This document shows, piece after piece, positions 5,614-60,091 of a stretch of DNA of 64,000 bases. Each line of letters opens with the position of its first letter. Position 1 is the stretch's first letter. The notes below the pieces were generated by a model. The model was not told where the DNA came from. It ran no database searches and worked only from the letters and a program-made list of their open reading frames with translations. The stretch is from a virus (lineage: Duplodnaviria; Caudoviricetes): positions 233,329 through 297,328 of IMG/VR virus record IMGVR_UViG_3300029288_000056; one strand, given 5' to 3'. The translations under genes and the position numbers were made by a program.

Positions 5614-5643
5614 ACTATATCATAAGTCGTTAGAAAAGTCAAG
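5614..5643 (-). promoter_or_regulatory. Repeated sigma70-type promoter
   Basis: TTGACT-17-TATAGT with extended TG. Confidence 0.85.
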
Positions 5644-5652
5644 CAAAAAAAA

Positions 5653-5737
5653 TAGAGAACAGGTTGAGGTGAGATATTGGGTTTCCCGGATTTTTGGTGG
5701 AAAATTTTATCAATGTAATCCCACAAGCATTTCTCTA
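5653..5737 (-). ncRNA. Y-RNA-like element Y1 (short central domain)
   Basis: TAGAGAA/TTCTCTA terminal stem; ATGCTTGTGGGATTACATT...ATATCTCAC..CTG motif shared with four other copies; followed by a U-run. Confidence 0.8.
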
Positions 5738-6010
5738 ATTTAAATCAAGTAAAGCTGGATTTGTATATCTAAACTTCAGTCTACTGACCACGGACTCCAC
5801 TTCACTAATGGCGCCAGAGTTTTCAGCGTTATAACCCTTACCATAAAGCTCCGCCAAAATCCTCTCCACACAATCGATGGCTTTCTTAAGCGGTTTCCAA
5901 CCCCAGTTCTCGTAAACTCCCGTCATTGCGGAATTTGCTACTCCGCGCGCTATGATCATCCACTCGTCGTAAGTGAACTCCATAGACCATTTTTCATTGA
6001 ATGTTCTCAT
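5735..6010 (-). CDS. Hypothetical protein
   Basis: 91-aa ORF between Y-like RNAs. Confidence 0.7.
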   Translation of the reverse strand: MRTFNEKWSMEFTYDEWMIIARGVANSAMTGVYENWGWKPLKKAIDCVERILAELYGKGYNAENSGAISEVESVVSRLKFRYTNPALLDLN

Positions 6011-6497
6011 TCTTTTTCGCCACCTCGGGATTTTTTGCCGCTAAGTCCACAAATCTTAATAGACTCATGATTTCATTCTCCATTACCTTACGATCATCTT
6101 CGGTTGCTTCTTGTCTCTTTTTAAATAGATTAAATATAACCTGTGCCTGCATCTCTGTACATTTACCAGCCTTCATACACGTATTTATTTTGTCTATTAA
6201 AAGCTGCCCCACTTCGTGTTGATCCGCAAAGTCATATCTCAATCTATCATAGTGAGTGTGAATCTTCGGCTCAAAGTCTGTGGTGCGGTCAAATTTCATA
6301 TTTCTGATCGTTTTTTGCTCAAAGCTTTCCTTATTTTCTTCCGCTAGTGTATCTGCGACTTTGCGTACAAAGCTTCCCAAATCGTCTATCGCACTGATAA
6401 CTTCTTTTGATATTTCGTCGCCACTTTCGATCAGTCTGTCGACACTATACTTAATCTTATCCTTAAGTTTTGCAAGTTCTTCAATAAATTCCATCAT
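5994..6497 (-). CDS. Hypothetical helical protein
   Basis: Start reassigned to MMEFIEE after GGAGG RBS. Confidence 0.7.
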   Translation of the reverse strand: MMEFIEELAKLKDKIKYSVDRLIESGDEISKEVISAIDDLGSFVRKVADTLAEENKESFEQKTIRNMKFDRTTDFEPKIHTHYDRLRYDFADQHEVGQLLIDKINTCMKAGKCTEMQAQVIFNLFKKRQEATEDDRKVMENEIMSLLRFVDLAAKNPEVAKKNENIQ

Positions 6498-6516
6498 ATT
6501 CACCTCCGAAATAAAA

Positions 6517-6639
6517 TACCAGAACAGAATCGGCGAGATTTGCACCTCATTTCTGAGGTTGCCGGTTATTAGTCGGCCGCTTTTGCAGGGTATTCCCCTG
6601 CTGCAATTGTAATGTAATCCCTAACCAGCATTTCTGGTA
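6517..6639 (-). ncRNA. Y-RNA-like element Y2 (multi-hairpin central domain)
   Basis: TACCAGAA/TTCTGGTA stem; ATGCTGGTTAGGGATTACATT...AATCTCGCC..CTG; inner hairpins GCAGGG/CCCTGC and ACCTCA/TGAGGT. Confidence 0.8.
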
Positions 6640-6644
6640 AAACT

Positions 6645-6779
6645 TTTCGGGACAGAGTTAGTGAGTCGTATTTACGCGCTCCACCAGTTGAGCTATCTCG
6701 GCATAATGAGCCGAGAGTGGGATTCGAACCCACAACCACGTGCTCCATAGGCAATGTATACCCACAAGCATTCCCGAAA
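6645..6779 (-). ncRNA. YrlA-type Y RNA Y3 with circularly permuted tRNA-like domain
   Basis: TTTCGGGA/TCCCGAAA stem; conserved motif; T arm GTGGG-TTCGAAT-CCCAC, closed acceptor TCTCGGC-loop-GCCGAGA, D arm GCTC-AACTGGTG-GAGC; 63 nt downstream of Ro60. Confidence 0.88.
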
Positions 6780-6784
6780 TATGG

Positions 6785-6839
6785 AACGGACAATTGGTGA
6801 CTAATCCGGTTGCGGTAAGATATAGCCACCAATGCCGTG
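6785..6839 (-). ncRNA. Long hairpin directly after the Ro60 stop codon
   Basis: ACGG-C-ATTGGTGGCTA...TAGTCACCAAT-TGT-CCGT. Confidence 0.45.
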
Positions 6840-6841
6840 TA

Positions 6842-8404
6842 TTACAAATCTATACTCTCTATAACCTCAACGAACTGATCCACATCGTTTCCGTATTTCA
6901 TGAACATACTTATCACGTTATATACGGAATCGCTGAACCCGCCCACGTTGAGAATTTCTTTACTGTTATGCGCTTGAGTGGACGTATTTGGCGCCAAGTC
7001 TATACAAACTAACTTTGCACCCGGATTGTGTTGCTTAAACTTCTTCCACTCATCCATCGTTGAAGTTCCTCGGTAGCTGTCCTGACTATCCACCCATGAT
7101 TCGTTGTCAGATAGATAGATGCAAAGATCGCCCTTCTTGCCGTTTTGATTCAAAAAGGCCAATGCTGTGGAGCAACTTGTGCCTCCACCGCTACTACCTC
7201 CGATTTCTCTTGCGTTTGTAGCAATAGAATCTAGAGGGTTGATCCCACTCATAAGTTGTGCTCTGGTCGCAAACTGTATAACTTCTGCAGTTGGATTCTT
7301 GCGCAAAATAGAAGCCGCAAACAGACCCGCCACGTTACAACAACTGACTTTAGAAGTAGCACTTCCTCTTTGGCCGGTCACGGGAGAACTCATAGACCCA
7401 GAGACATCAACGAACAGCCAAACCTTTCCCTCAATCTCAGGTATATTCTCCGCCGAATAGTCAAGAGCCTTTTGTAGCGCTATGGTTATCTCGCGTGGCA
7501 TTTCGCTTTGCGCGAACATGTAAGCCGTAAACAGTTGATAAGGAAATGTTCTGGACTTTTTCACAAGTTCAGCATCCATCAACTGACTAACAACGTATTG
7601 CACCATTTCTTTGTCTTCAAAGACTTTGTGACGTAGAAGCGTATTGAGATTGATTCTCAATTGGTTCCAAGTCATAGTCTTTGCGAGCGCCTTCCAATGT
7701 GCATCGGTAAGGCTCAGGGACGTTAGCATCTCAAATGGAACTTCTGGAAACGCGACAGACTCCCCGTTAGTAAGAGCTTTCTTAAACAACTCGTACGCTT
7801 TTAGGTCGTCTGGTAGTAAAACGTCGTTAAACTCGCGGCCCAACACGTAGTTGATCGTATTCTCGCGTTCTTTGTTTACGGGTTTTGGGTGAACCATCTT
7901 TATAATATCAGACATTGATGGATCACTTCCTGTGACGAAAGCCACGTAAGAATCGGTCCAACTGTTGATCAAGCCGGCAAGTTGTTTCTTGAGTGAAGTA
8001 CCAAAGGATTGGCGACCGAATTTATTCGAACGAATTGCTTGTACGAAGTTTCGTATCATCTTTCCGTTGGTTACGACCTTTGGAAACGCCTTTTTAAATT
8101 GAGCCAAAGCCTCTGGAGTCTTGCAACCCGCTAGATAAGCCAATAGCGCAACCGGCATGTCCTTCATCAAACCACGAGTCGCAGAATAGACCGCGGTCTT
8201 GGCGATAAAGGTAGGATCAACTTGAGGTAGATACTTGTAGAGATGGGCGAGTTGGTCTCCCCCACTTGCGTAGTAGGTGCCGTTAAAGCAGCCGGTTACA
8301 GCTAACTGCGCGATGGCGTGCTTTGCACTCATTGAATACGCAATTCCACCTGCGTCATTTACTGCGTCTGCAGGTTTGACACCGTTAAACACGTTCTTGT
8401 TCAT
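6842..8404 (-). CDS. rsr: Ro60/Rsr RNA-binding protein (TROVE domain + vWA domain)
   Basis: N-terminal NDAGGIAY...TGCFNGTYY, helical TROVE region (LRINLNTLLRH, FPYQLFTAY), C-terminal vWA MIDAS DVSGSM, GGGT, SDNESW. Confidence 0.93.
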   Translation of the reverse strand: MNKNVFNGVKPADAVNDAGGIAYSMSAKHAIAQLAVTGCFNGTYYASGGDQLAHLYKYLPQVDPTFIAKTAVYSATRGLMKDMPVALLAYLAGCKTPEALAQFKKAFPKVVTNGKMIRNFVQAIRSNKFGRQSFGTSLKKQLAGLINSWTDSYVAFVTGSDPSMSDIIKMVHPKPVNKERENTINYVLGREFNDVLLPDDLKAYELFKKALTNGESVAFPEVPFEMLTSLSLTDAHWKALAKTMTWNQLRINLNTLLRHKVFEDKEMVQYVVSQLMDAELVKKSRTFPYQLFTAYMFAQSEMPREITIALQKALDYSAENIPEIEGKVWLFVDVSGSMSSPVTGQRGSATSKVSCCNVAGLFAASILRKNPTAEVIQFATRAQLMSGINPLDSIATNAREIGGSSGGGTSCSTALAFLNQNGKKGDLCIYLSDNESWVDSQDSYRGTSTMDEWKKFKQHNPGAKLVCIDLAPNTSTQAHNSKEILNVGGFSDSVYNVISMFMKYGNDVDQFVEVIESIDL

Positions 8405-8443
8405 TTTTATTCTCCTTTTTAGGAAACAGTTATGAAAAGATTA

Positions 8444-8518
8444 AGATGGGACAGGGGTTTGCTGAGATACGGTTTTAATTTACAGTTTAAATGTAATCCC
8501 AAGCGAGCATTCCCATCT
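8444..8518 (-). ncRNA. Y-RNA-like element Y5 (minimal), immediately upstream of Ro60
   Basis: AGATGGGA/TCCCATCT stem; ATGCTCGCTTGGGATTACATT...TATCTCAGC..CTG. Confidence 0.8.
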
Positions 8519-8561
8519 ACAACACTAACACGGATTATGCAAAATAATCCCCTATTATTTT

Positions 8562-8632
8562 CAGGAGTTAAAGGATTTGAACCCTTACCGGATGTTTTGG
8601 AGACATCCATGCTACCATTACACCAAACTCCT
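8562..8632 (-). tRNA. tRNA-Trp(CCA)
   Basis: AGGAGTT/AACTCCT, G73, arm GATGT-CTCCAAA-ACATC. Confidence 0.95.
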
Positions 8633-8637
8633 ATGTA

Positions 8638-9546
8638 TTACAGATCTTCTCTATCTCTGAAGCCCAAAAAGATAGGCTCACGTGGAAGGTCCTTTGTACC
8701 GATTTTCTGATACTTGTATTTAATCATTTTTCCAACGTATCGATCTTGGTTATCCCATATCTCTTGTCGCAACTCATGTGTTAATCCCTGCCCGGTTCCA
8801 ATGTCAAACTGTATTCCCTCAAAGTCGCCTATACCGACGACTAGAAACTTTCCTAGTGTGTTTGCTGGAACCTTACCTTCCTTAGAGAATGAACGTTTAG
8901 TTCTACCAAACGCATCTTTCTCGGCCTCGTTCAGGTTGTGCATCATCTCTTCAAAACCAACAATTCTTCCCTCTGCATCCTCAAATGGCTTTATCTTCAG
9001 GAGAATTCTTTCCCTCAAAGATGAGCGGCCAAACTTATATTCCCCATCTATTTTACGGATCATAGTTCCCTCGTATCCAGACTCCAGATGTAAGACTATG
9101 ATTTCATTGAGGGCTTTTTCATTCATTATTAGAGTTTCCTCCACGATTTCCAGTTTAGTATGTCCGTTTTTTTCTACAAAAGCAGAATACCAATCTGTGA
9201 TGTCCTTTATTCTACTTATAAATGGCTTTGCCGGCTCGTCTTTCACATAATCAAAGATAGAATAAACAAAATCCGGTTCGCCATCCATGGACGAAATCGC
9301 GGAAGAGCAATCTTGAAATGTCTTGCCCGCGGTAAGCTCACCGTCTAAACCGTCCGGCAGTTCTAACCCCTCCAGATAGTTTCTGATGTATGCGTTTCTA
9401 ATCGGTTTGAAGGATCTACTTAAGGCTTTTCCTTGAACCATCAAGCAACGGTGTCCATCAATCTTTGGGGATGCATAAACGGGATACTGTACATCCCTCA
9501 TGTCGTGGATCGTCTCAGCTAAAAGTGGCTTTGTTATTTTTCCCAT
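8638..9546 (-). CDS. lig: ATP-dependent DNA ligase
   Basis: KIDG adenylation motif, LDGEL, YEGTMIR, LLKIK, C-terminal OB fold; start reassigned to MGKITKPLLA (leaderless). Confidence 0.93.
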   Translation of the reverse strand: MGKITKPLLAETIHDMRDVQYPVYASPKIDGHRCLMVQGKALSRSFKPIRNAYIRNYLEGLELPDGLDGELTAGKTFQDCSSAISSMDGEPDFVYSIFDYVKDEPAKPFISRIKDITDWYSAFVEKNGHTKLEIVEETLIMNEKALNEIIVLHLESGYEGTMIRKIDGEYKFGRSSLRERILLKIKPFEDAEGRIVGFEEMMHNLNEAEKDAFGRTKRSFSKEGKVPANTLGKFLVVGIGDFEGIQFDIGTGQGLTHELRQEIWDNQDRYVGKMIKYKYQKIGTKDLPREPIFLGFRDREDL

Positions 9547-9552
9547 GTTTGA

Positions 9553-9582
9553 ATTATAATACAATTTAAGAGAAAAGTCAAG
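9553..9582 (-). promoter_or_regulatory. Repeated promoter heading the ligase-tRNA-Ro60/Y RNA unit
   Basis: TTGACT-17-TATAAT. Confidence 0.85.
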
Positions 9583-9596
9583 CACTTTCTTACAAT

Positions 9597-9628
9597 AAAA
9601 AACCGCCTCTTTTCGCAAGAAGCGGTTG
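9597..9628 (-). terminator. Rho-independent terminator
   Basis: AACCGCTTCTT-GCGAA-AAGAGGCGGTT followed by a T-run. Confidence 0.75.
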
Positions 9629-32151: not shown

Positions 32152-32243
32152 CAGGACCGCTAGGACTCGAACCTAGAGCCTCCAAGGGATTACTCGTCAG
32201 TAATCCGTTTAAGGAGCGGGCTTACCATTAGCCCTACAGCCCT
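32152..32243 (-). ncRNA. tRNA-like RNA with expanded anticodon arm
   Basis: AGGGCTG/CGGTCCT acceptor, D arm GGGC-TAATGGTAA-GCCC, T arm CTAGG-TTCGAGT-CCTAG; CTCC..GGAG stem encloses GGATTACT-GACG-AGTAATCC. Confidence 0.75.
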
Positions 32244-33165: not shown

Positions 33166-34533
33166 TTATCTTTCGGGGTATTTTTGCAGCAACTCCTTCA
33201 GACGTTCGGTCGTATTAAGGCTCGGGTCCTCCAAAACCTGTTCCAAAAGCCAATCCAAAACCTTACCGACCTCTGGCCCCGGCTTCAAAAGCATCATCGT
33301 CATTACGTCAAATCCGTTAAGGGCCAAGTCTGTAATCTTAAACGCAGCCTCGGACATTTCCTGATCCTCAATTCGTCGTGCCAAGTCTGCGAGATCCTTA
33401 ATCTTTTCAACTGCCGGTTCGGTCTCAAGGGCCTGAGCATCAGCCAAAAGAATCTTCCACAAAGACCAAACTCTTTCCTTACCGACTCTGTTGATTAACC
33501 GTCTCACACTGGCGTTAGACCAGCTTCGGTCGTACTTGCTCATGTGCTCCCGAATCAACATCAAGACACTTTCTGTCAAGTCGGTAGGTTGCTTCATTCT
33601 CATCATAATATCAAGGGCCATCTTCTCGGAAGCGATTTCGTGCTCATAGAAGTGAACCGCACCTTCCTCAAAAATGTTCCCACCCTCTACCGTCCTTGTC
33701 AGCGGCTTTCCGATGTCGTGTAGCACCGCTGCCCAACGAAGGTCGAGGTCGTTGTCCACGACGTCGCAGGCAATCATCAAGTGGCCGAAAACGTCATGCT
33801 TATGCCACCTGTTTTGTGTTACACCAGCGCATCTACTCAGCTCTGGAAGCAACAGTGCCAAAAGACCCGTAGACAGAAGCAGTCTAAACCCTCTTGACGG
33901 ATCTGGCCCCACAATCATCTTGTTAAGCTCTTGAGTGATTCGCTCTTGAGCTACGTTTTCCATAACGCCAAGGCAAAGCCTCTTAATAGACTCAAGTGTC
34001 TCGGCCTCGATAGTGAATCCGAGGACCGTGGCAAACCGGCAGGCCCTTAGCATTCTAAGAGCGTCTTCTTGGAATCGCTTACCGGGATCTCCAACTGCCC
34101 GAACGATCATGTTTTGAATGTCTTCCATTCCGCCATGATTATCGAGAAACACGTCTTCGATCGGGTTGTATGCCATAGCGTTGATGGTAAAGTCTCGTCT
34201 CATCAGATCCTTCTCGATGGACTGACTAAATACCACAAAGTCAGGATGGCGCCCGTCAGAGTAATCACTATCTTCCCTAAAGGTCGTTACCTCGATCGGC
34301 CGTTGATCCGTCACTACGGTTACGGTTCCAAATGGTACACCGGTGGCCTTTACTCTATCACCGAAGATATCGAACACCTCAGACCAGCGTGCATTCGTAG
34401 CAATATCCCAATCGTGAACTGGGCGCGCCATAACAAGGTCTCGAACGGCTCCACCTACAAGCCAACTCTCAAAACCGTGTTGCCTCAGAGTCTTACAGAC
34501 CCCAAGAACGTCGTGTGGAATTCTTTCTCTCAT
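33166..34533 (-). CDS. cca: CCA-adding enzyme (class II tRNA nucleotidyltransferase) with HD domain
   Basis: LVGGAVRD, DWDIAT, EVTTFR, DLMRRDFTINAMA, RFQEDALRMLRA, LHDIGKP. Confidence 0.93.
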   Translation of the reverse strand: MRERIPHDVLGVCKTLRQHGFESWLVGGAVRDLVMARPVHDWDIATNARWSEVFDIFGDRVKATGVPFGTVTVVTDQRPIEVTTFREDSDYSDGRHPDFVVFSQSIEKDLMRRDFTINAMAYNPIEDVFLDNHGGMEDIQNMIVRAVGDPGKRFQEDALRMLRACRFATVLGFTIEAETLESIKRLCLGVMENVAQERITQELNKMIVGPDPSRGFRLLLSTGLLALLLPELSRCAGVTQNRWHKHDVFGHLMIACDVVDNDLDLRWAAVLHDIGKPLTRTVEGGNIFEEGAVHFYEHEIASEKMALDIMMRMKQPTDLTESVLMLIREHMSKYDRSWSNASVRRLINRVGKERVWSLWKILLADAQALETEPAVEKIKDLADLARRIEDQEMSEAAFKITDLALNGFDVMTMMLLKPGPEVGKVLDWLLEQVLEDPSLNTTERLKELLQKYPER

Positions 34534-41796: not shown

Positions 41797-41928
41797 AGGG
41801 GGAGGATTCGAACCGCGGGCTACGAACCCCGTTATATCCTTCTCCGATACTTGGCTATGCTTTCTTCTATCGTAGTTTAGAAGTCCATATAGCTGCTACC
41901 GGTGTTTTACCTAATAAACTACTCTCCC
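41797..41928 (-). ncRNA. tRNA-like RNA with expanded anticodon and T arms
   Basis: GGGAGAG-TA-GTTT-ATTAGGTA-AAAC D arm; CCGGTA/TATCGG stem enclosing nested GCTAT/ATAGC and CTTCTA/TAGAAG; GGTTCGAATCC before CTCCCCC. Confidence 0.6.
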
Positions 41929-41934
41929 ACGTAT

Positions 41935-42017
41935 TGGGCCGGGGAGGATTTGAACCTCCGTACCCGGAAGGGATCAGATTTACAGTCTGACGCCTTTAAC
42001 CACTCGGCCACCGACCC
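41935..42017 (-). tRNA. tRNA-Tyr(GTA)
   Basis: GGGTCGG/CCGGCCC, arm TCAGA-CTGTAAA-TCTGA, long variable arm. Confidence 0.96.
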
Positions 42018-42032
42018 ATTTTAAAACAATAC

Positions 42033-42159
42033 TAGAGAACAGAAATTGTGAGTACGTTTATGCGTTCTATCTGTTGAACTACCGCCCTTGTGGGGCGGGG
42101 GAGATTCGCACTCCCAGCTCATCCTTGAAATGGAATGTAAACCCACGAGCATTTCTCTA
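42033..42159 (-). ncRNA. YrlA-type Y RNA Y6 with permuted tRNA-like domain (orphan copy)
   Basis: TAGAGAA/TTCTCTA; ATGCTCGTGGGTTTACATT; T arm GGGAG-TGCGAAT-CTCCC, acceptor CCGCCC/GGGCGG, D arm GTTC-AACAGATA-GAAC. Confidence 0.85.
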
Positions 42160-42902: not shown

Positions 42903-42947
42903 GATTATATCCTAACACACTTTCCGTAGAAAGTCAAGCGAAAAATT

Positions 42948-43344: not shown

Positions 43345-43395
43345 ATTTTATACATCGTAACATACTTCTGTGGAAAAGTCAAGCGTTATTTCATG

Positions 43396-57838: not shown

Positions 57839-60091
57839 TTATAACGACTTGATGTTAAGCACAGGCTTAACCCTATCCACTATAGTTACAGTAGGCTCGA
57901 TTAAACTCTCGATCAGCGCTGCAGACTTGTAGGCGGAAGGCGCTTCGTCAAGAGTGCCTTCGCAGACAGAACTCGAAACTATTCCACCCATTTGTTCGGT
58001 AAACTCTTGCATATCCAGTTTCCTCTTAGCTTCTCCACGCCCCATTAACCTTCCTGCACCATGAGGAGCAGAGAAGTTCCAGTCAGGGTTATCCTTGCCC
58101 TTACAAATCAAGAGACCATCCCTCATGTTGAAAGGAATAATCATTAAGTACTCTGACTTAATCGCGCCCTTGCGAATTATCATGTCATGGAAGTCGATGT
58201 AGTTATGCACAGACTCAATTCTACCCATTAGTTTGTAGGTATTCCAAACGTTAATGTCGTCGTTGTATTCGAAGCCGAGAGCCCTCTTCATGGCCAACAG
58301 GATCCAGTTTCGGTTTTCTGCGGCGTATTGTTGAGCGAAAAGCATATCGATCAAGTAACCGTGCATACGCTCACCGGTAAGGAACATGAGCTCCTTATCG
58401 CCGTTGTAGTCGGCTTTGATCCATTCAATCCTTTGCTCAATCTCAGTTTTGTCTCGAGTCTCTCTAAGGACTGTAGCAATCCGCTCTTTGTGCTCTTGCT
58501 CAGTGACGTTAACGGCTTTATCTTGCCAGTACTTAGCAACCTTCAAACCGAGATTTCGCGAACCGGTGTGGATTGTAAGCCAGTAGCCTGTATTCTCCGA
58601 GACTCCGATCTCGATGAAGTGGTTTCCACCGCCCAAAGTGCCGAGCGAGTTACAAGCGGTATGAACTTCAATCCCTATCCGTTTACAGAAGCCTTTAAAC
58701 CATTCGTAGTCGTAGTGTGGAAAAGGAACTTCAGGCATCTTTTGCTTAGCCGTAGTGGAGTTCCAGTTAAGTCTATTCCAGAAAGTGTTAGTGCCGAGAA
58801 CCCTATTTTCAGGGCTGTCTATGCGCTCAAGATTATCGAACGGCTTTGAACGGATCGAGAAGCCCATCGGGACCGCGGCACGAATTATCTGGTCCACTTC
58901 CTCAAGACTTTGAGTAGGCTTTTGAATGTTGAGTGAAAGCATGCCACAGTTATGAACAAACACACCCGCAGCTAAAGCAAAATTGTGATAAGTCTCAACT
59001 TGTAGGCAATAAACGTCTTCCTTATAATCAAGTATTCGTGTGTATAATACTTTATGGTTCAAGGATTCACTATTGCGTTTATGCCAATTTGTATGTCTAA
59101 CAAAACCACCTTTACCTAAAATTTTTCTACCACATACTTCGCATGTAAAAGTAGTGCTGTTATTGACAGCATTAAATTTCCTAAAGAACTCGGCGCCTCT
59201 TTTGCCGTTATCCTTGATTTTTTCTTTCCATTCCGCATGGTGGTCTCGCATGTATGTTGTGATATTTTCTATACCAACCGCCACTTTCTTTTCATGTAAT
59301 TCTGGCCGATATTGCCATCCTCTCTTTTTAATAGTTGTGTTTTTCTTCTCTTGAAAGTTATCGTCTGAAAAACTCGTATGTATTTTTCTATGAAGTTTAG
59401 AATGTTCAGAGGGTGTAAGATATTCAAGGTTAGAAGGGTCGTTATTATACCAAACCACATTCTTGTGATGCACCACCTTATTTTGCTTACCAAAAATACA
59501 TCTAGCTACCATTAAGTGAGTTCGTATGGCTCTTTGTTTTGCGGAAAAAACATACTCCAATCCATCGCGGCTTGTATATGTTCTATAAAAAGGCATCAAG
59601 CTATCCATAACACTTAAGTCTTTAGCTTCTTTATATGTCCCATCAGACATCATAAAAAGATGGTCCGGAGTGCATCTTAGTCTTTCTCCGCCACTAACAA
59701 CTACTTCCATCAGTTCGGCGTTAACTCTAGTTTTTAAAGCTTTAGCTCTTCCCGGCACAATTTGTAAATTTTCATCCATAGAATACACATAGAACTCGCC
59801 CATATGAGTTAATTCATCTAAAGAGTATTGTACCCCGTTAAGCAATGGAATTTTTGTATCACTAGTAAAACATCCGATATCCACACCCACAACATTAGGA
59901 ACGATTCTGTCAGTTATAGGCATTGTGAACCCGATAACCGATCCTGTCCCCTTGTGGCAGTCGGGCATGATGACGACCTTATTAGTAAACGCGGGATGAT
60001 TCACCATCTTATATATCTGAGCCATGGTAGCCTCGTCCACGCCGTCTATCATAACGTCGGCTGAAGTGTATTTTCCGTTAATTGTAAACAT
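57839..60091 (-). CDS. rtcB: RtcB RNA ligase interrupted by an intein
   Basis: MPDCHKG..SVIG, GVDIG|C, LGTLGGGNHFIE, IHTGSR, HNYID, RKGA, SAPHGAGR, LDEAPSAYK. Confidence 0.95.
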   Translation of the reverse strand: MFTINGKYTSADVMIDGVDEATMAQIYKMVNHPAFTNKVVIMPDCHKGTGSVIGFTMPITDRIVPNVVGVDIGCFTSDTKIPLLNGVQYSLDELTHMGEFYVYSMDENLQIVPGRAKALKTRVNAELMEVVVSGGERLRCTPDHLFMMSDGTYKEAKDLSVMDSLMPFYRTYTSRDGLEYVFSAKQRAIRTHLMVARCIFGKQNKVVHHKNVVWYNNDPSNLEYLTPSEHSKLHRKIHTSFSDDNFQEKKNTTIKKRGWQYRPELHEKKVAVGIENITTYMRDHHAEWKEKIKDNGKRGAEFFRKFNAVNNSTTFTCEVCGRKILGKGGFVRHTNWHKRNSESLNHKVLYTRILDYKEDVYCLQVETYHNFALAAGVFVHNCGMLSLNIQKPTQSLEEVDQIIRAAVPMGFSIRSKPFDNLERIDSPENRVLGTNTFWNRLNWNSTTAKQKMPEVPFPHYDYEWFKGFCKRIGIEVHTACNSLGTLGGGNHFIEIGVSENTGYWLTIHTGSRNLGLKVAKYWQDKAVNVTEQEHKERIATVLRETRDKTEIEQRIEWIKADYNGDKELMFLTGERMHGYLIDMLFAQQYAAENRNWILLAMKRALGFEYNDDINVWNTYKLMGRIESVHNYIDFHDMIIRKGAIKSEYLMIIPFNMRDGLLICKGKDNPDWNFSAPHGAGRLMGRGEAKRKLDMQEFTEQMGGIVSSSVCEGTLDEAPSAYKSAALIESLIEPTVTIVDRVKPVLNIKSL
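58949..59872 (-). mobile_element. Intein (308 aa) with HNH-type homing endonuclease in RtcB
   Basis: Starts CFTSDT, block B CTPDH, VHHKN..NNDPSNL..H HNH motif, ends HNFAL..VFVHN before Cys+1. Confidence 0.93.

What the first reader, a model, noticed from the sequence alone, without database searches (positions are those of the whole stretch)
5653..8518. Phage Ro60 with a modular family of Y-RNA-like RNAs: one docking module, different central domains
Seen: four elements around the Ro60/TROVE gene (5653-5737, 6517-6639, 6645-6779, 8444-8518) and a fifth at 42033-42159 share one minus-strand architecture: [7-8-bp terminal stem]-AUGCU(N2-4)GGG(A/U)(U/A)UACAUU-[variable domain]-(A/U)CUC(A/G)..CUG-[stem']. 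The terminal stems differ in sequence but all pair (TAGAGAA/TTCTCTA, TACCAGAA/TTCTGGTA, TTTCGGGA/TCCCGAAA, AGATGGGA/TCCCATCT), and GUGGGAU can pair with AUCUCAC. The middles are unrelated: two permuted tRNA mimics, one multi-hairpin domain and two short domains. Established: bacterial Ro60 (Rsr) binds Y RNAs through the 5'/3' stem, and the other end tethers effectors (PNPase in Deinococcus) or mimics tRNA (YrlA). The conserved motif here does not match the GNCGAAN(0-1)G Ro-binding consensus as I recall it. Inference: a phage-encoded Ro60 RNP platform with its own Y RNA subclass, where swapping the RNA retargets Ro60 to different host machines (nucleases, ligases, anticodon-nuclease defences).
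Basis: partly seen in the sequence, partly recalled or inferred. Interest (0 to 1): 0.92.

Follow-up and report, generated by a model that had tools for sequence, protein, structure and literature searches.

The report
Phage Ro60 with seven Y RNAs
A 297-kb phage encodes a Ro60 RNA-binding ring protein and seven small partner RNAs that share one docking handle but differ in the middle; this is a multi-copy version of the known bacterial and phage Ro60/Y-RNA system, and it recurs in related large phages, often packed between tRNA genes.

Summary
All five elements lie on the minus strand at the stated coordinates. The 297-kb phage genome holds two more outside the window, seven in all.

A covariance model built from short copies finds exactly these seven. 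It also finds 2-10 copies in each of ten other large IMG/VR phage records, plus one to four weak matches in an eleventh. Over 68 distinct sequences both helices covary strongly: 95.5% of cells are paired, against 33-54% in slid controls.

Every record at least 90% complete that carries the handle also encodes a Ro60 homolog (40-53% identity).

The claim that the handle is a new docking motif is not supported. The Rfam YrlA consensus already contains AUGCu, the GGG helix, UAc and cUuG. E2 and E5 match YrlA over its full length, but below its gathering score. The family consensus is CGAAUG, which fits the published GNCGAAN0-1G motif.

I found four features undescribed in the papers I could search:
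- the high copy number;
- dispersal across the genome and head-to-tail packing with tRNA genes;
- a recurring extra hairpin;
- one copy (E7) whose core is a non-permuted tRNA lacking a full anticodon loop.

Expression and Ro60 binding are untested. This scan has already reported similar phage Ro60/Y-RNA arrays on other DNA. Verdict: a new variant of a known kind.

The parts
8561..8633 (-). tRNA-Trp (CCA), 43 nt upstream of E1; likely the first gene of the transcription unit
   Evidence: ARAGORN and Rfam tRNA, 61.5 bits
8444..8518 (-). E1: short Y RNA. Handle plus one small hairpin (5 bp, 8-nt loop ACUGUAAA) and AAAACCGU. The same middle type occurs in other phages (L043, L148, L159).
   Evidence: R1 48.3 bits, E = 7e-10; fold; middle sequences compared
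6842..8404 (-). Ro60/Rsr-type TROVE + vWA protein, 520 aa
   Evidence: Pfam vWA_Ro60 1e-16 and TROVE 23.7 bits (cut-off 23). PDB 2NVO Rsr E = 3.9e-19 and phage phiLo Ro60 9KOP E = 1e-15, both nearly full length
6645..6779 (-). E2: YrlA-type Y RNA. Handle plus a permuted tRNA mimic (T arm, then a hairpin, then a D arm).
   Evidence: Rfam YrlA 52.8 bits, E = 2.4e-10, model 1-114, below the gathering score of 69; R1 26.4 bits
6517..6639 (-). E3: Y RNA with three hairpins and no T arm, 5 nt downstream of E2
   Evidence: R1 27.3 bits, E = 2e-4; fold z = -4.4
5994..6497 (-). ORF of about 167 aa (ATG at 6497 after GGAGG), no family found, not conserved next to Ro60 in other phages
5735..6010 (-). ORF of 91 aa, no family found; its TAG stop codon is the first three bases of E4
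5653..5737 (-). E4: short Y RNA, followed by a run of eight U and then a TTGACT-17-TATAGT promoter for the next gene; probably the end of the unit
   Evidence: R1 64.5 bits (one of the model's seed sequences); promoter scan; sequence
42033..42159 (-). E5: YrlA-type Y RNA 34 kb from Ro60, 14 nt upstream of tRNA-Tyr
   Evidence: Rfam YrlA 43.6 bits, E = 1.4e-6, full length; R1 31.8 bits; distance to tRNA
41934..42018 (-). tRNA-Tyr (GTA), immediately downstream of E5
57839..60091 (-). Context: RtcB RNA ligase interrupted by an intein with an HNH endonuclease
33166..34533 (-). Context: CCA-adding tRNA nucleotidyltransferase with an HD domain
8638..9618 (-). Context: ATP-dependent DNA-ligase-like gene upstream of tRNA-Trp
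   Evidence: Pfam DNA_ligase_OB_2 7.5e-11, DNA_ligase_A_M 1.8e-5

Best explanation
These are phage-encoded Y RNAs of the YrlA/YrlB kind, the partner RNAs of the phage's own Ro60 ring protein.

Structure (shown). Each RNA closes its 5' and 3' ends in a 7-8-bp stem (H1). This is followed by an asymmetric internal loop (A-AUGC-U on the 5' side, about 8 nt ending in YUG on the 3' side) and a second helix (H2, GGGAU/AUCUC, with a conserved G.U pair). An invariant UACA follows.

Docking (inferred). This handle is the Ro60 docking site. The inference rests on homology with YrlA and on co-occurrence with Ro60.

Middles (shown) and their role (inferred). The middles differ. E2 and E5 are permuted tRNA mimics. 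E7 is a non-permuted tRNA body with a shortened anticodon loop. E3 has several hairpins. E1, E4 and E6 carry small hairpins. Each middle is inferred to present a different surface: to tRNA-handling enzymes, to an exonuclease such as host PNPase, or simply to gate the Ro60 cavity.

Maturation (inferred). The RNAs are made as parts of longer transcripts (tRNA-Trp, E1, Ro60, E2, E3, two ORFs, E4; others lie beside tRNAs). They are probably released by tRNA-processing enzymes, because copies lie 0-10 nt from tRNA genes or from each other.

Biological role (inferred, least certain). RNA surveillance or repair during infection, or countering a host defence. The phage also carries many tRNA genes, an RtcB ligase and a CCA-adding enzyme.
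For: - Ro60 identity.
- YrlA homology: E2 and E5 match Rfam YrlA over the whole model, and the YrlA consensus shows the same handle.
- Copy number: model R1 finds exactly 7 copies in this genome, all on the strand of the Ro60 gene. It finds 2-10 copies in each of ten other phage records, plus weak matches in G011.
- Structure: over 68 distinct sequences, 95.5% of cells are paired, all 15 pairs show changes on both sides, and slid controls give 33-54%.
- RNA, not DNA: a G.U pair is kept in 63 of 68 sequences. It would be a C-A mismatch on the other strand, so the element is an RNA read from this strand.
- Invariant unpaired bases: A-AUGC, UACA, and the G before the 3' stem.
- Co-occurrence: a Ro60 homolog is present in every record at least 90% complete that has the handle, and in three fragments as well. 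The copies usually lie directly beside it.
- Packing: 27 of 68 copies lie within 10 nt of a tRNA gene on the same strand, and 41 of 68 within 10 nt of a tRNA or another copy.
- Transcription signals: a TTGACT-17-TAATAT promoter-like site ends 7 nt before E7. E4 is followed by a U run.
- Published precedent: bacterial and phage Ro60 proteins bind such RNAs (PMC4201824). Phage phiLo Ro60 binds two of them and forms a ternary complex with host PNPase (PMC12135203). A Ro60-like phage protein counters the ppl defence system (PMC11482910).
- Genome context: RtcB and a CCA-adding enzyme are encoded in the same genome.
Against: - No expression, RNA-end or binding data exist for this phage.
- All YrlA matches fall below Rfam's gathering score (36-56 bits against 69). 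The four copies without a tRNA-like part (E1, E3, E4, E6) gave no Rfam YrlA match in the stretches scanned; E1, E3 and E4 were scanned up to E = 10, E6 only up to E = 0.01.
- Three of the seven copies lie 34-210 kb from the Ro60 gene.
- Four records with the handle show no Ro60, although all four are fragments (2-52% complete).
- Myxococcus phage Mx1 has the closest Ro60 among cultured phages (43%) but gives no R1 match, only a divergent candidate.
- The covariation counts were made on an alignment fitted to the model, which favours the modelled structure.
Confidence: 0.8

Rival explanations
1. The elements are structured spacers or processing signals of tRNA and ncRNA arrays. They would act as folding insulators or RNase entry sites with no Ro60 partner, and the link to Ro60 would come only from sharing the same gene neighbourhood.
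For: Many copies lie 0-10 nt from tRNA genes or from each other. Three copies in this genome lie far from Ro60. G007 has ten copies and no Ro60 in the 52% of the genome that is held.
Against: The handle is homologous to the Ro60-binding end of YrlA. Unpaired bases are invariant across very different phages, which points to a sequence-specific partner. Every near-complete genome with the handle encodes Ro60. E2, E3 and E4 are not next to any tRNA.
Confidence: 0.07
2. The RNAs act mainly as free tRNA decoys that soak up host tRNA-targeting nucleases or modification enzymes. Ro60 would only stabilise them, or would be irrelevant.
For: E2, E5 and E7 have tRNA-like T and D arms. 19 of 68 middles have a hairpin with a 7-nt loop of the form YU-NNN-RN, against 2.7 +/- 1.5 in shuffles. 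The phage invests heavily in tRNA supply and repair.
Against: This does not explain the invariant handle or its co-occurrence with Ro60. About 39 of 68 copies have no T arm. The loop motif is mostly one conserved sequence (CUGYUAA), not a range of anticodons. This rival overlaps the main explanation rather than excluding it.
Confidence: 0.08
3. The repeats are DNA-level signals (protein-binding sites, recombination sites, promoter or terminator cassettes) or chance similarities, not RNA genes.
For: E4 is followed by a U run and a promoter, so it could be read as a terminator cassette.
Against: Compensatory changes preserve pairing while the stem sequences differ completely. G.U pairs are kept on one strand only. 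All seven copies lie on one strand. E-values reach 1e-13 to 1e-18. Full-length YrlA matches exist.
Confidence: 0.02

Closest known systems
YrlA (Rfam RF02553): bacterial and mycobacteriophage Y RNA bound by Rsr/Ro60 (Chen et al. 2014, PMC4201824)
   Same: Terminal stem, AUGC internal loop, GGG helix, UAC, and a 3' loop ending in UG. A permuted tRNA-like domain (T arm, hairpin, D arm) in E2 and E5. Encoded beside the Ro60 gene and on its strand. More than one Y RNA per genome.
   Different: All matches fall below the gathering score (36-56 bits against 69). There is a 15-nt insertion after UAC, a small hairpin, in E2. UACAU is invariant. This genome has 7 copies and relatives have up to 10. Copies are dispersed and interleaved with tRNA genes. 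This phage's copies have G or A at the C of GNCGAA.
YrlB / Yrn2: the short second Y RNAs of Salmonella, M. smegmatis and D. radiodurans (PMC4201824)
   Same: They share the Ro60-binding end but lack a full tRNA-like domain; the middle is a simple hairpin. E1, E4 and E6 fit this description.
   Different: No sequence similarity could be tested, because there is no Rfam model for these RNAs. Here the short class has subtypes conserved between phages, such as a hairpin with a CUGYUAA loop followed by AAAACCG.
D. radiodurans Yrn1
   Same: The paper describes Yrn1 as having its D and T arms in the opposite order to YrlA relative to the RNA ends (PMC4201824). E7 likewise has the D arm before the T arm.
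   Different: The core of E7 scores as a tRNA (41.4 bits, model positions 5-66) with canonical D and T arms and only a 5-nt anticodon loop. No direct comparison with the Yrn1 sequence was made.
Thermus phage phiLo Ro60 with Yrl1 and Yrl2 (NAR 2025, PMC12135203; PDB 9KOP, 9L5Y)
   Same: A phage-encoded Ro60 with Y-like RNAs next to the gene. Binding was shown there, along with a ternary complex with host PNPase. This phage, like phiLo, has no PNPase gene.
   Different: The two Ro60 proteins are only distantly related (E = 1e-15). phiLo has two RNAs, against seven here. The paper does not report tRNA-array packing.
Bas63 gp130, a Ro60-like protein that counters the ppl defence system (PhageMaP preprint, PMC11482910)
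   Same: A phage Ro60-like gene beside a tRNA array. The authors guessed that some of the annotated tRNAs are Y RNAs.
   Different: It is a structural look-alike only. No RNAs were defined there, and no relation to this Ro60 subfamily was tested here.

Membership tests
Ro60 / Rsr (TROVE + vWA ring protein) | TROVE HEAT-repeat ring followed by a vWA domain, with full-length homology to solved Ro60 or Rsr structures | tested here: met
   Pfam vWA_Ro60 61.7 bits (cut-off 27.7) and TROVE 23.7 bits (cut-off 23). 2NVO Rsr E = 3.9e-19 over residues 15-502; 9KOP phage Ro60 E = 1e-15.
YrlA (Rfam RF02553) | Score at or above the curated gathering threshold (69 bits) | tested here: not met
   E2 52.8 bits, E5 43.6 bits, E7 17.1 bits. 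Relatives in other phages score 36-56 bits. E1, E3, E4 and E6 give no match.
YrlA (Rfam RF02553) | Terminal 5'/3' stem with the GNCGAAN0-1G motif at its inner end | tested here: inconclusive
   The family consensus CGAAUG fits the motif (C in 38, G in 52, A in 67 and A in 68 of 68 sequences). The seven copies of this phage read GGGAAUG or AGAAAUG, so the C is replaced.
YrlA (Rfam RF02553) | Permuted tRNA-like domain: T arm, then a stem-loop, then a D arm | tested here: met
   Met for E2 and E5 only. E7 has the arms in normal tRNA order. E1, E3, E4 and E6 lack the domain.
YrlA (Rfam RF02553) | Encoded within about 4 kb of the Ro60 gene and on the same strand | tested here: met
   E1-E4 lie within 1.2 kb of the Ro60 gene on the same strand. 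E5, E6 and E7 are on the same strand but 34 kb, about 210 kb and about 100 kb away.
Y RNA (functional definition) | Stable small RNA bound by Ro60 in vivo | not testable with these tools
   No sequencing runs could be obtained. This needs RIP or EMSA and small-RNA sequencing.

The most novel reading that the evidence does not exclude
A clade of large phages has expanded Y RNAs into sets of 4-10 or more paralogs, matured by the tRNA-processing machinery. Each paralog would couple the single phage Ro60 ring to a different tRNA-handling or RNA-degrading enzyme (host PNPase, the phage's RtcB or CCA-adding enzyme, or host tRNA-targeting defence nucleases). The set would then work as a programmable adaptor kit for RNA repair or counter-defence during infection. 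The short class would present an anticodon-stem-loop-like hairpin, and the long class a tRNA elbow.
Probability: 0.2. Interest if true: 0.8.

Novelty: new variant of a known kind. Interest (0 to 1): 0.55.

Why it matters
Why Ro60 needs several different Y RNAs is still an open question, in bacteria and in human cells alike. This phage clade offers an extreme case. One Ro60 gene goes with up to ten handle-sharing RNAs whose middles fall into subtypes conserved between phages. The RNAs sit inside tRNA operons, in genomes that also carry RtcB and a CCA-adding enzyme. The 68 aligned sequences define a handle with strong covariation and a few invariant unpaired bases, so binding and partner pull-down experiments can be designed directly. 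Most of these RNAs are invisible to current annotation: the YrlA-type copies score below Rfam's threshold and the short copies gave no Rfam YrlA match. Phage genome annotation would therefore gain a new model.

Tried and rejected
All counts therefore rest on R1, which was built from 7 short copies.
- blastn of the locus against GenBank phages found nothing.
- The exact-pattern scan of IMG/VR returned 108 or more stretches. About 2e-9 chance matches per base are expected for this pattern, and only about 20 stretches had a matching 3' half, so most are chance.
- Myxococcus phage Mx1 has the closest cultured Ro60 (43%). It gave no R1 or YrlA match, only a divergent candidate (GAAUGC..GGGAC-GUAC) just upstream of tRNA-Gly, which I did not verify.
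- The two ORFs between E3 and E4, and the neighbouring ligase, are not conserved next to Ro60 in the other phages, so I dropped them as candidate partners.
- I considered UACAUU pairing with the A-rich stretch before the 3' strand of H2. It is not consistent across copies, so I rejected it.
- I considered the 7-nt CUNNNAA loop as a varied set of anticodon mimics. The loop is mostly one conserved sequence, so this stays only as a low-odds idea.
- The supplements of Chen et al. 2014 and the 2020 Annual Review were not available. I could not check how many copies per phage were already listed there.
Full report
**Where the window lies.** The window is bases 233329-297328 of a 297,328-bp IMG/VR virus record that CheckV rates 94% complete. 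It has 42% G+C and carries 11-12 tRNA genes in the window alone. It is therefore part of a jumbo phage genome.

**The observation.**
- E1: 8518-8444
- E2: 6779-6645
- E3: 6639-6517
- E4: 5737-5653
- E5: 42159-42033

Each has this layout: a 7-8-bp terminal stem (H1); AAUGCU; 2-4 nt; a helix strand GGG(A/U)(U/A); UACAUU; a variable middle; (A/U)CUC with 1-3 more pairing bases (H2); about 8-10 unpaired bases ending in CUG; and the 3' strand of H1.

The evidence against chance is as follows.
- The 11-nt core matches exactly five times in the window. With one mismatch allowed there are 18 hits against 4.9 +/- 2.2 in shuffles.
- The full 5' pattern occurs seven times in the genome, always on the minus strand, and never when the pattern is read backwards.
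- The two extra copies are E6 (genome 29558-29646) and E7 (genome 140116-140244).

**Protein.** The 520-aa ORF at 6842-8404 is a genuine Ro60.
- Pfam vWA_Ro60 scores 1e-16 and TROVE scores just over its cut-off.
- It is homologous over nearly its full length to D. radiodurans Rsr (2NVO, E = 3.9e-19) and to the Thermus phage phiLo Ro60 (9KOP/9L5Y, E = 1e-15).

**The handle is the YrlA handle.** With a relaxed threshold, Rfam YrlA (RF02553) aligns to E2 over the whole model (52.8 bits, E = 2.4e-10) and to E5 (43.6 bits, E = 1.4e-6). The printed YrlA consensus is cgaAUGCuuggGgaaCUAc ... uucCccaaAaAcUuGucG. It has the same order of parts: terminal stem, AUGC loop, GGG helix, UAC, and a 3' loop ending in UG.

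Chen et al. 2014 define the likely Rsr-binding motif as GNCGAAN0-1G at the inner end of the terminal stem. In the 68-sequence family alignment the corresponding consensus is C-G-A-A-U-G-C, which fits that motif. The claim of a new docking motif is therefore not supported. What is specific to this phage clade is the invariant UACA(U), in 67-68 of 68 sequences.

**A family across large phages.** I built covariance model R1 from seven short copies: E4, E6 and five from other phages (alignment A2). The structure given to it was H1 plus H2 only.
- R1 recovers all seven copies in this genome and nothing else at E <= 1.
- With filters off, the five window copies score 26-64 bits and the next hit scores 10.9 bits.
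- Copy numbers in other IMG/VR records that share the pattern are G007 10, G001 8, G003 7, G012 6, G009 4, G010 4, G004 3, G005 2 and G008 2. G011 has 1-4 weak matches.
- Scanning the loci directly with R1 found one more copy in the G009 array, five in a row, and two copies each in the G002 and G006 loci.

**Covariation.** On the 68 distinct sequences (alignment A3):
- 95.5% of cells form standard pairs, against 64.9% in shuffles and 33-54% when the 3' partners are slid by 1-3 columns.
- All 15 pairs show changes on both sides.
- Several H1 positions use all four Watson-Crick pair types.
- A G.U pair in H2 is kept in 63 of 68 sequences. On the opposite strand it would be a C-A mismatch, so the element is an RNA read from this strand.

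One caveat: the alignment was fitted to the model, which favours the structure. The size of the effect makes this unimportant.

**Link to Ro60.** A homolog of the window's Ro60 (40-53% identity) is present in:
- every record at least 90% complete that carries the handle (G000, G003, G008, G009, G010, G011);
- the fragments G001, G005 and G012.

It is missing only from G002, G004, G006 and G007, which are 12%, 24%, 2% and 52% complete. In most records the RNAs lie directly up- or downstream of the gene. G009, for example, has five in tandem starting 67 nt after the stop codon.

The closest Ro60 in a cultured phage is that of Myxococcus phage Mx1 (43%). All actinophage Ro60 proteins are 25% identical or less. 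Mx1 gave no R1 or YrlA match, only an unverified divergent candidate next to tRNA-Gly.

**The middles.**
- 28 of the 68 have a T-arm hairpin. Most of these follow the YrlA order of T arm, hairpin, D arm.
- 39 of the 68 are short or otherwise structured.
- E7 is different. Its core scores 41.4 bits against Rfam tRNA (above that family's threshold) over model positions 5-66. It has canonical D and T arms in normal order, a 3-bp remnant of the acceptor stem that joins H2, and an anticodon loop of only 5 nt. It is thus a non-permuted tRNA mimic attached through the acceptor end. The paper describes this orientation for D. radiodurans Yrn1, not for YrlA.
- The middles are not free to vary. A hairpin directly after UACAU (4-6 bp with covarying stems, 7-nt loop CUGYUAA or similar) recurs in short and long copies of many phages. 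In E2 it corresponds to the 15-nt insertion relative to the YrlA model.
- The middle of E1 (hairpin plus AAAACCGU) has close counterparts in G001, G002 and G007. Subtypes conserved between phages whose Ro60 proteins are only 40-53% identical argue that the middles are functional.

**Genomic packing.**
- 27 of the 68 copies lie within 10 nt of an ARAGORN tRNA on the same strand.
- 41 of the 68 lie within 10 nt of a tRNA or another copy.
- In G012, Y RNAs and tRNAs alternate with gaps of 0-5 nt.
- In this genome E5 ends 14 nt before tRNA-Tyr, E7 ends 5 nt before a tRNA, E1 starts 43 nt after tRNA-Trp, and E2 and E3 are 5 nt apart.

The likely unit is tRNA-Trp, E1, Ro60, E2, E3, two small ORFs, E4.
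- The stop codon of the last ORF forms the first three bases of E4.
- E4 is followed by eight U and then a TTGACT-17-TATAGT promoter for the next gene.
- A similar TTGACT-17-TAATAT site ends 7 nt before E7.

That the RNA ends are made by RNase P and by tRNA 3' processing is an inference from this spacing. It is consistent with the report that M. smegmatis YrlA and YrlB are cut from one precursor.

**Context and likely role.** The phage also encodes an RtcB ligase interrupted by an intein with an HNH endonuclease (57839-60091) and a CCA-adding enzyme with an HD domain (33166-34533). It has no RNase PH/PNPase domain.

Published work bears on the role.
- In Salmonella, rsr, the yrl genes and rtcBA form one operon (PMC7790460, listed; I know the operon structure from the literature).
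- Ro60, Y RNA and PNPase form a degradation machine in D. radiodurans.
- Phage phiLo Ro60 with its Yrl RNAs binds host PNPase.
- A Ro60-like protein of phage Bas63 counters the ppl defence system, and its authors guessed that neighbouring "tRNAs" are Y RNAs.

The best-supported reading is a phage Ro60 RNP set for RNA surveillance, RNA repair or counter-defence, with the middles as adaptors. Which partners they bind is unknown.

**Novelty.** Already published:
- Ro60 with Y RNAs;
- several Y RNAs per organism;
- tRNA mimicry by Y RNAs;
- phage-encoded versions of the system.

Not found in the papers I could search:
- copy numbers of 7-10 per phage;
- dispersal over the genome;
- systematic head-to-tail packing with tRNA genes;
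- the UACAU and hairpin extension of the handle;
- the non-permuted tRNA form.

Earlier reports of this same scan describe comparable phage Ro60 and Y-like RNA arrays on other DNA, some with other handles. One describes a "normal tRNA" form like E7. Within the scan, then, this is a recurrent theme. I rate it a new variant of a known kind, with moderate interest.

Noticed in passing
window 57839-60091 (-): The RtcB RNA ligase gene is interrupted by an intein carrying an HNH homing endonuclease, all in one 750-aa open frame (RtcB residues 1-50 and 46-425 flank Intein_splicing + HNH_3).
   Followed up: partly
window 33166-34533 (-): A class II CCA-adding tRNA nucleotidyltransferase with an HD domain (PolyA_pol, PolyA_pol_RNAbd, HD, tRNA_NucTran2_2). 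Together with RtcB and many tRNA genes it forms a tRNA maintenance kit. The genome has no PNPase or RNase PH domain.
   Followed up: partly
G000:C1:140116-140244 (-), outside the window (L127:1501-1629): E7 is a Y RNA whose core is a non-permuted tRNA body (Rfam tRNA 41.4 bits, model positions 5-66) with a 5-nt anticodon loop. A promoter-like site ends 7 nt upstream, and a real tRNA follows 5 nt downstream.
   Followed up: yes
window about 41800-41930 (-) and up to 43476: Downstream of tRNA-Tyr lies a tRNA-like gene with a long insertion between the D-arm region and the T arm. Another reader (e1-5665834) flagged this whole ORF-free stretch as 'tRNA-shell' RNAs. R1 finds only E5 there. Three TTGACT-17 promoter-like sites lie on the minus strand.
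   Followed up: no
window 32152-32243 (-): ARAGORN calls a 92-nt tRNA of undetermined type with a two-base 'anticodon'. Rfam tRNA does not call it at the gathering threshold.
   Followed up: no
L151 (G012:C1:2784-5853) and L148/L163 (G007:C1:90561-96418): These are dense arrays in which Y RNAs and tRNAs alternate with gaps of 0-5 nt. G007 has ten Y RNAs within 4.3 kb.
   Followed up: partly
L177:7170-7277 (Myxococcus phage Mx1, OR576727.2, about 59090-59197): An unannotated candidate divergent Y RNA (GAAUGC-GGUGGGAC-GUAC ... CUCCCACC) lies between the Ro60 region and tRNA-Gly in a cultured phage. Neither R1 nor Rfam YrlA detects it.
   Followed up: partly
window 5614-5642, 42909-42937, 43354-43382 (-); L127:1637-1665 (-): A recurrent phage promoter-like motif: TTGACT, a 17-nt spacer with TG before the second hexamer, then TAnnAT.
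   Followed up: no
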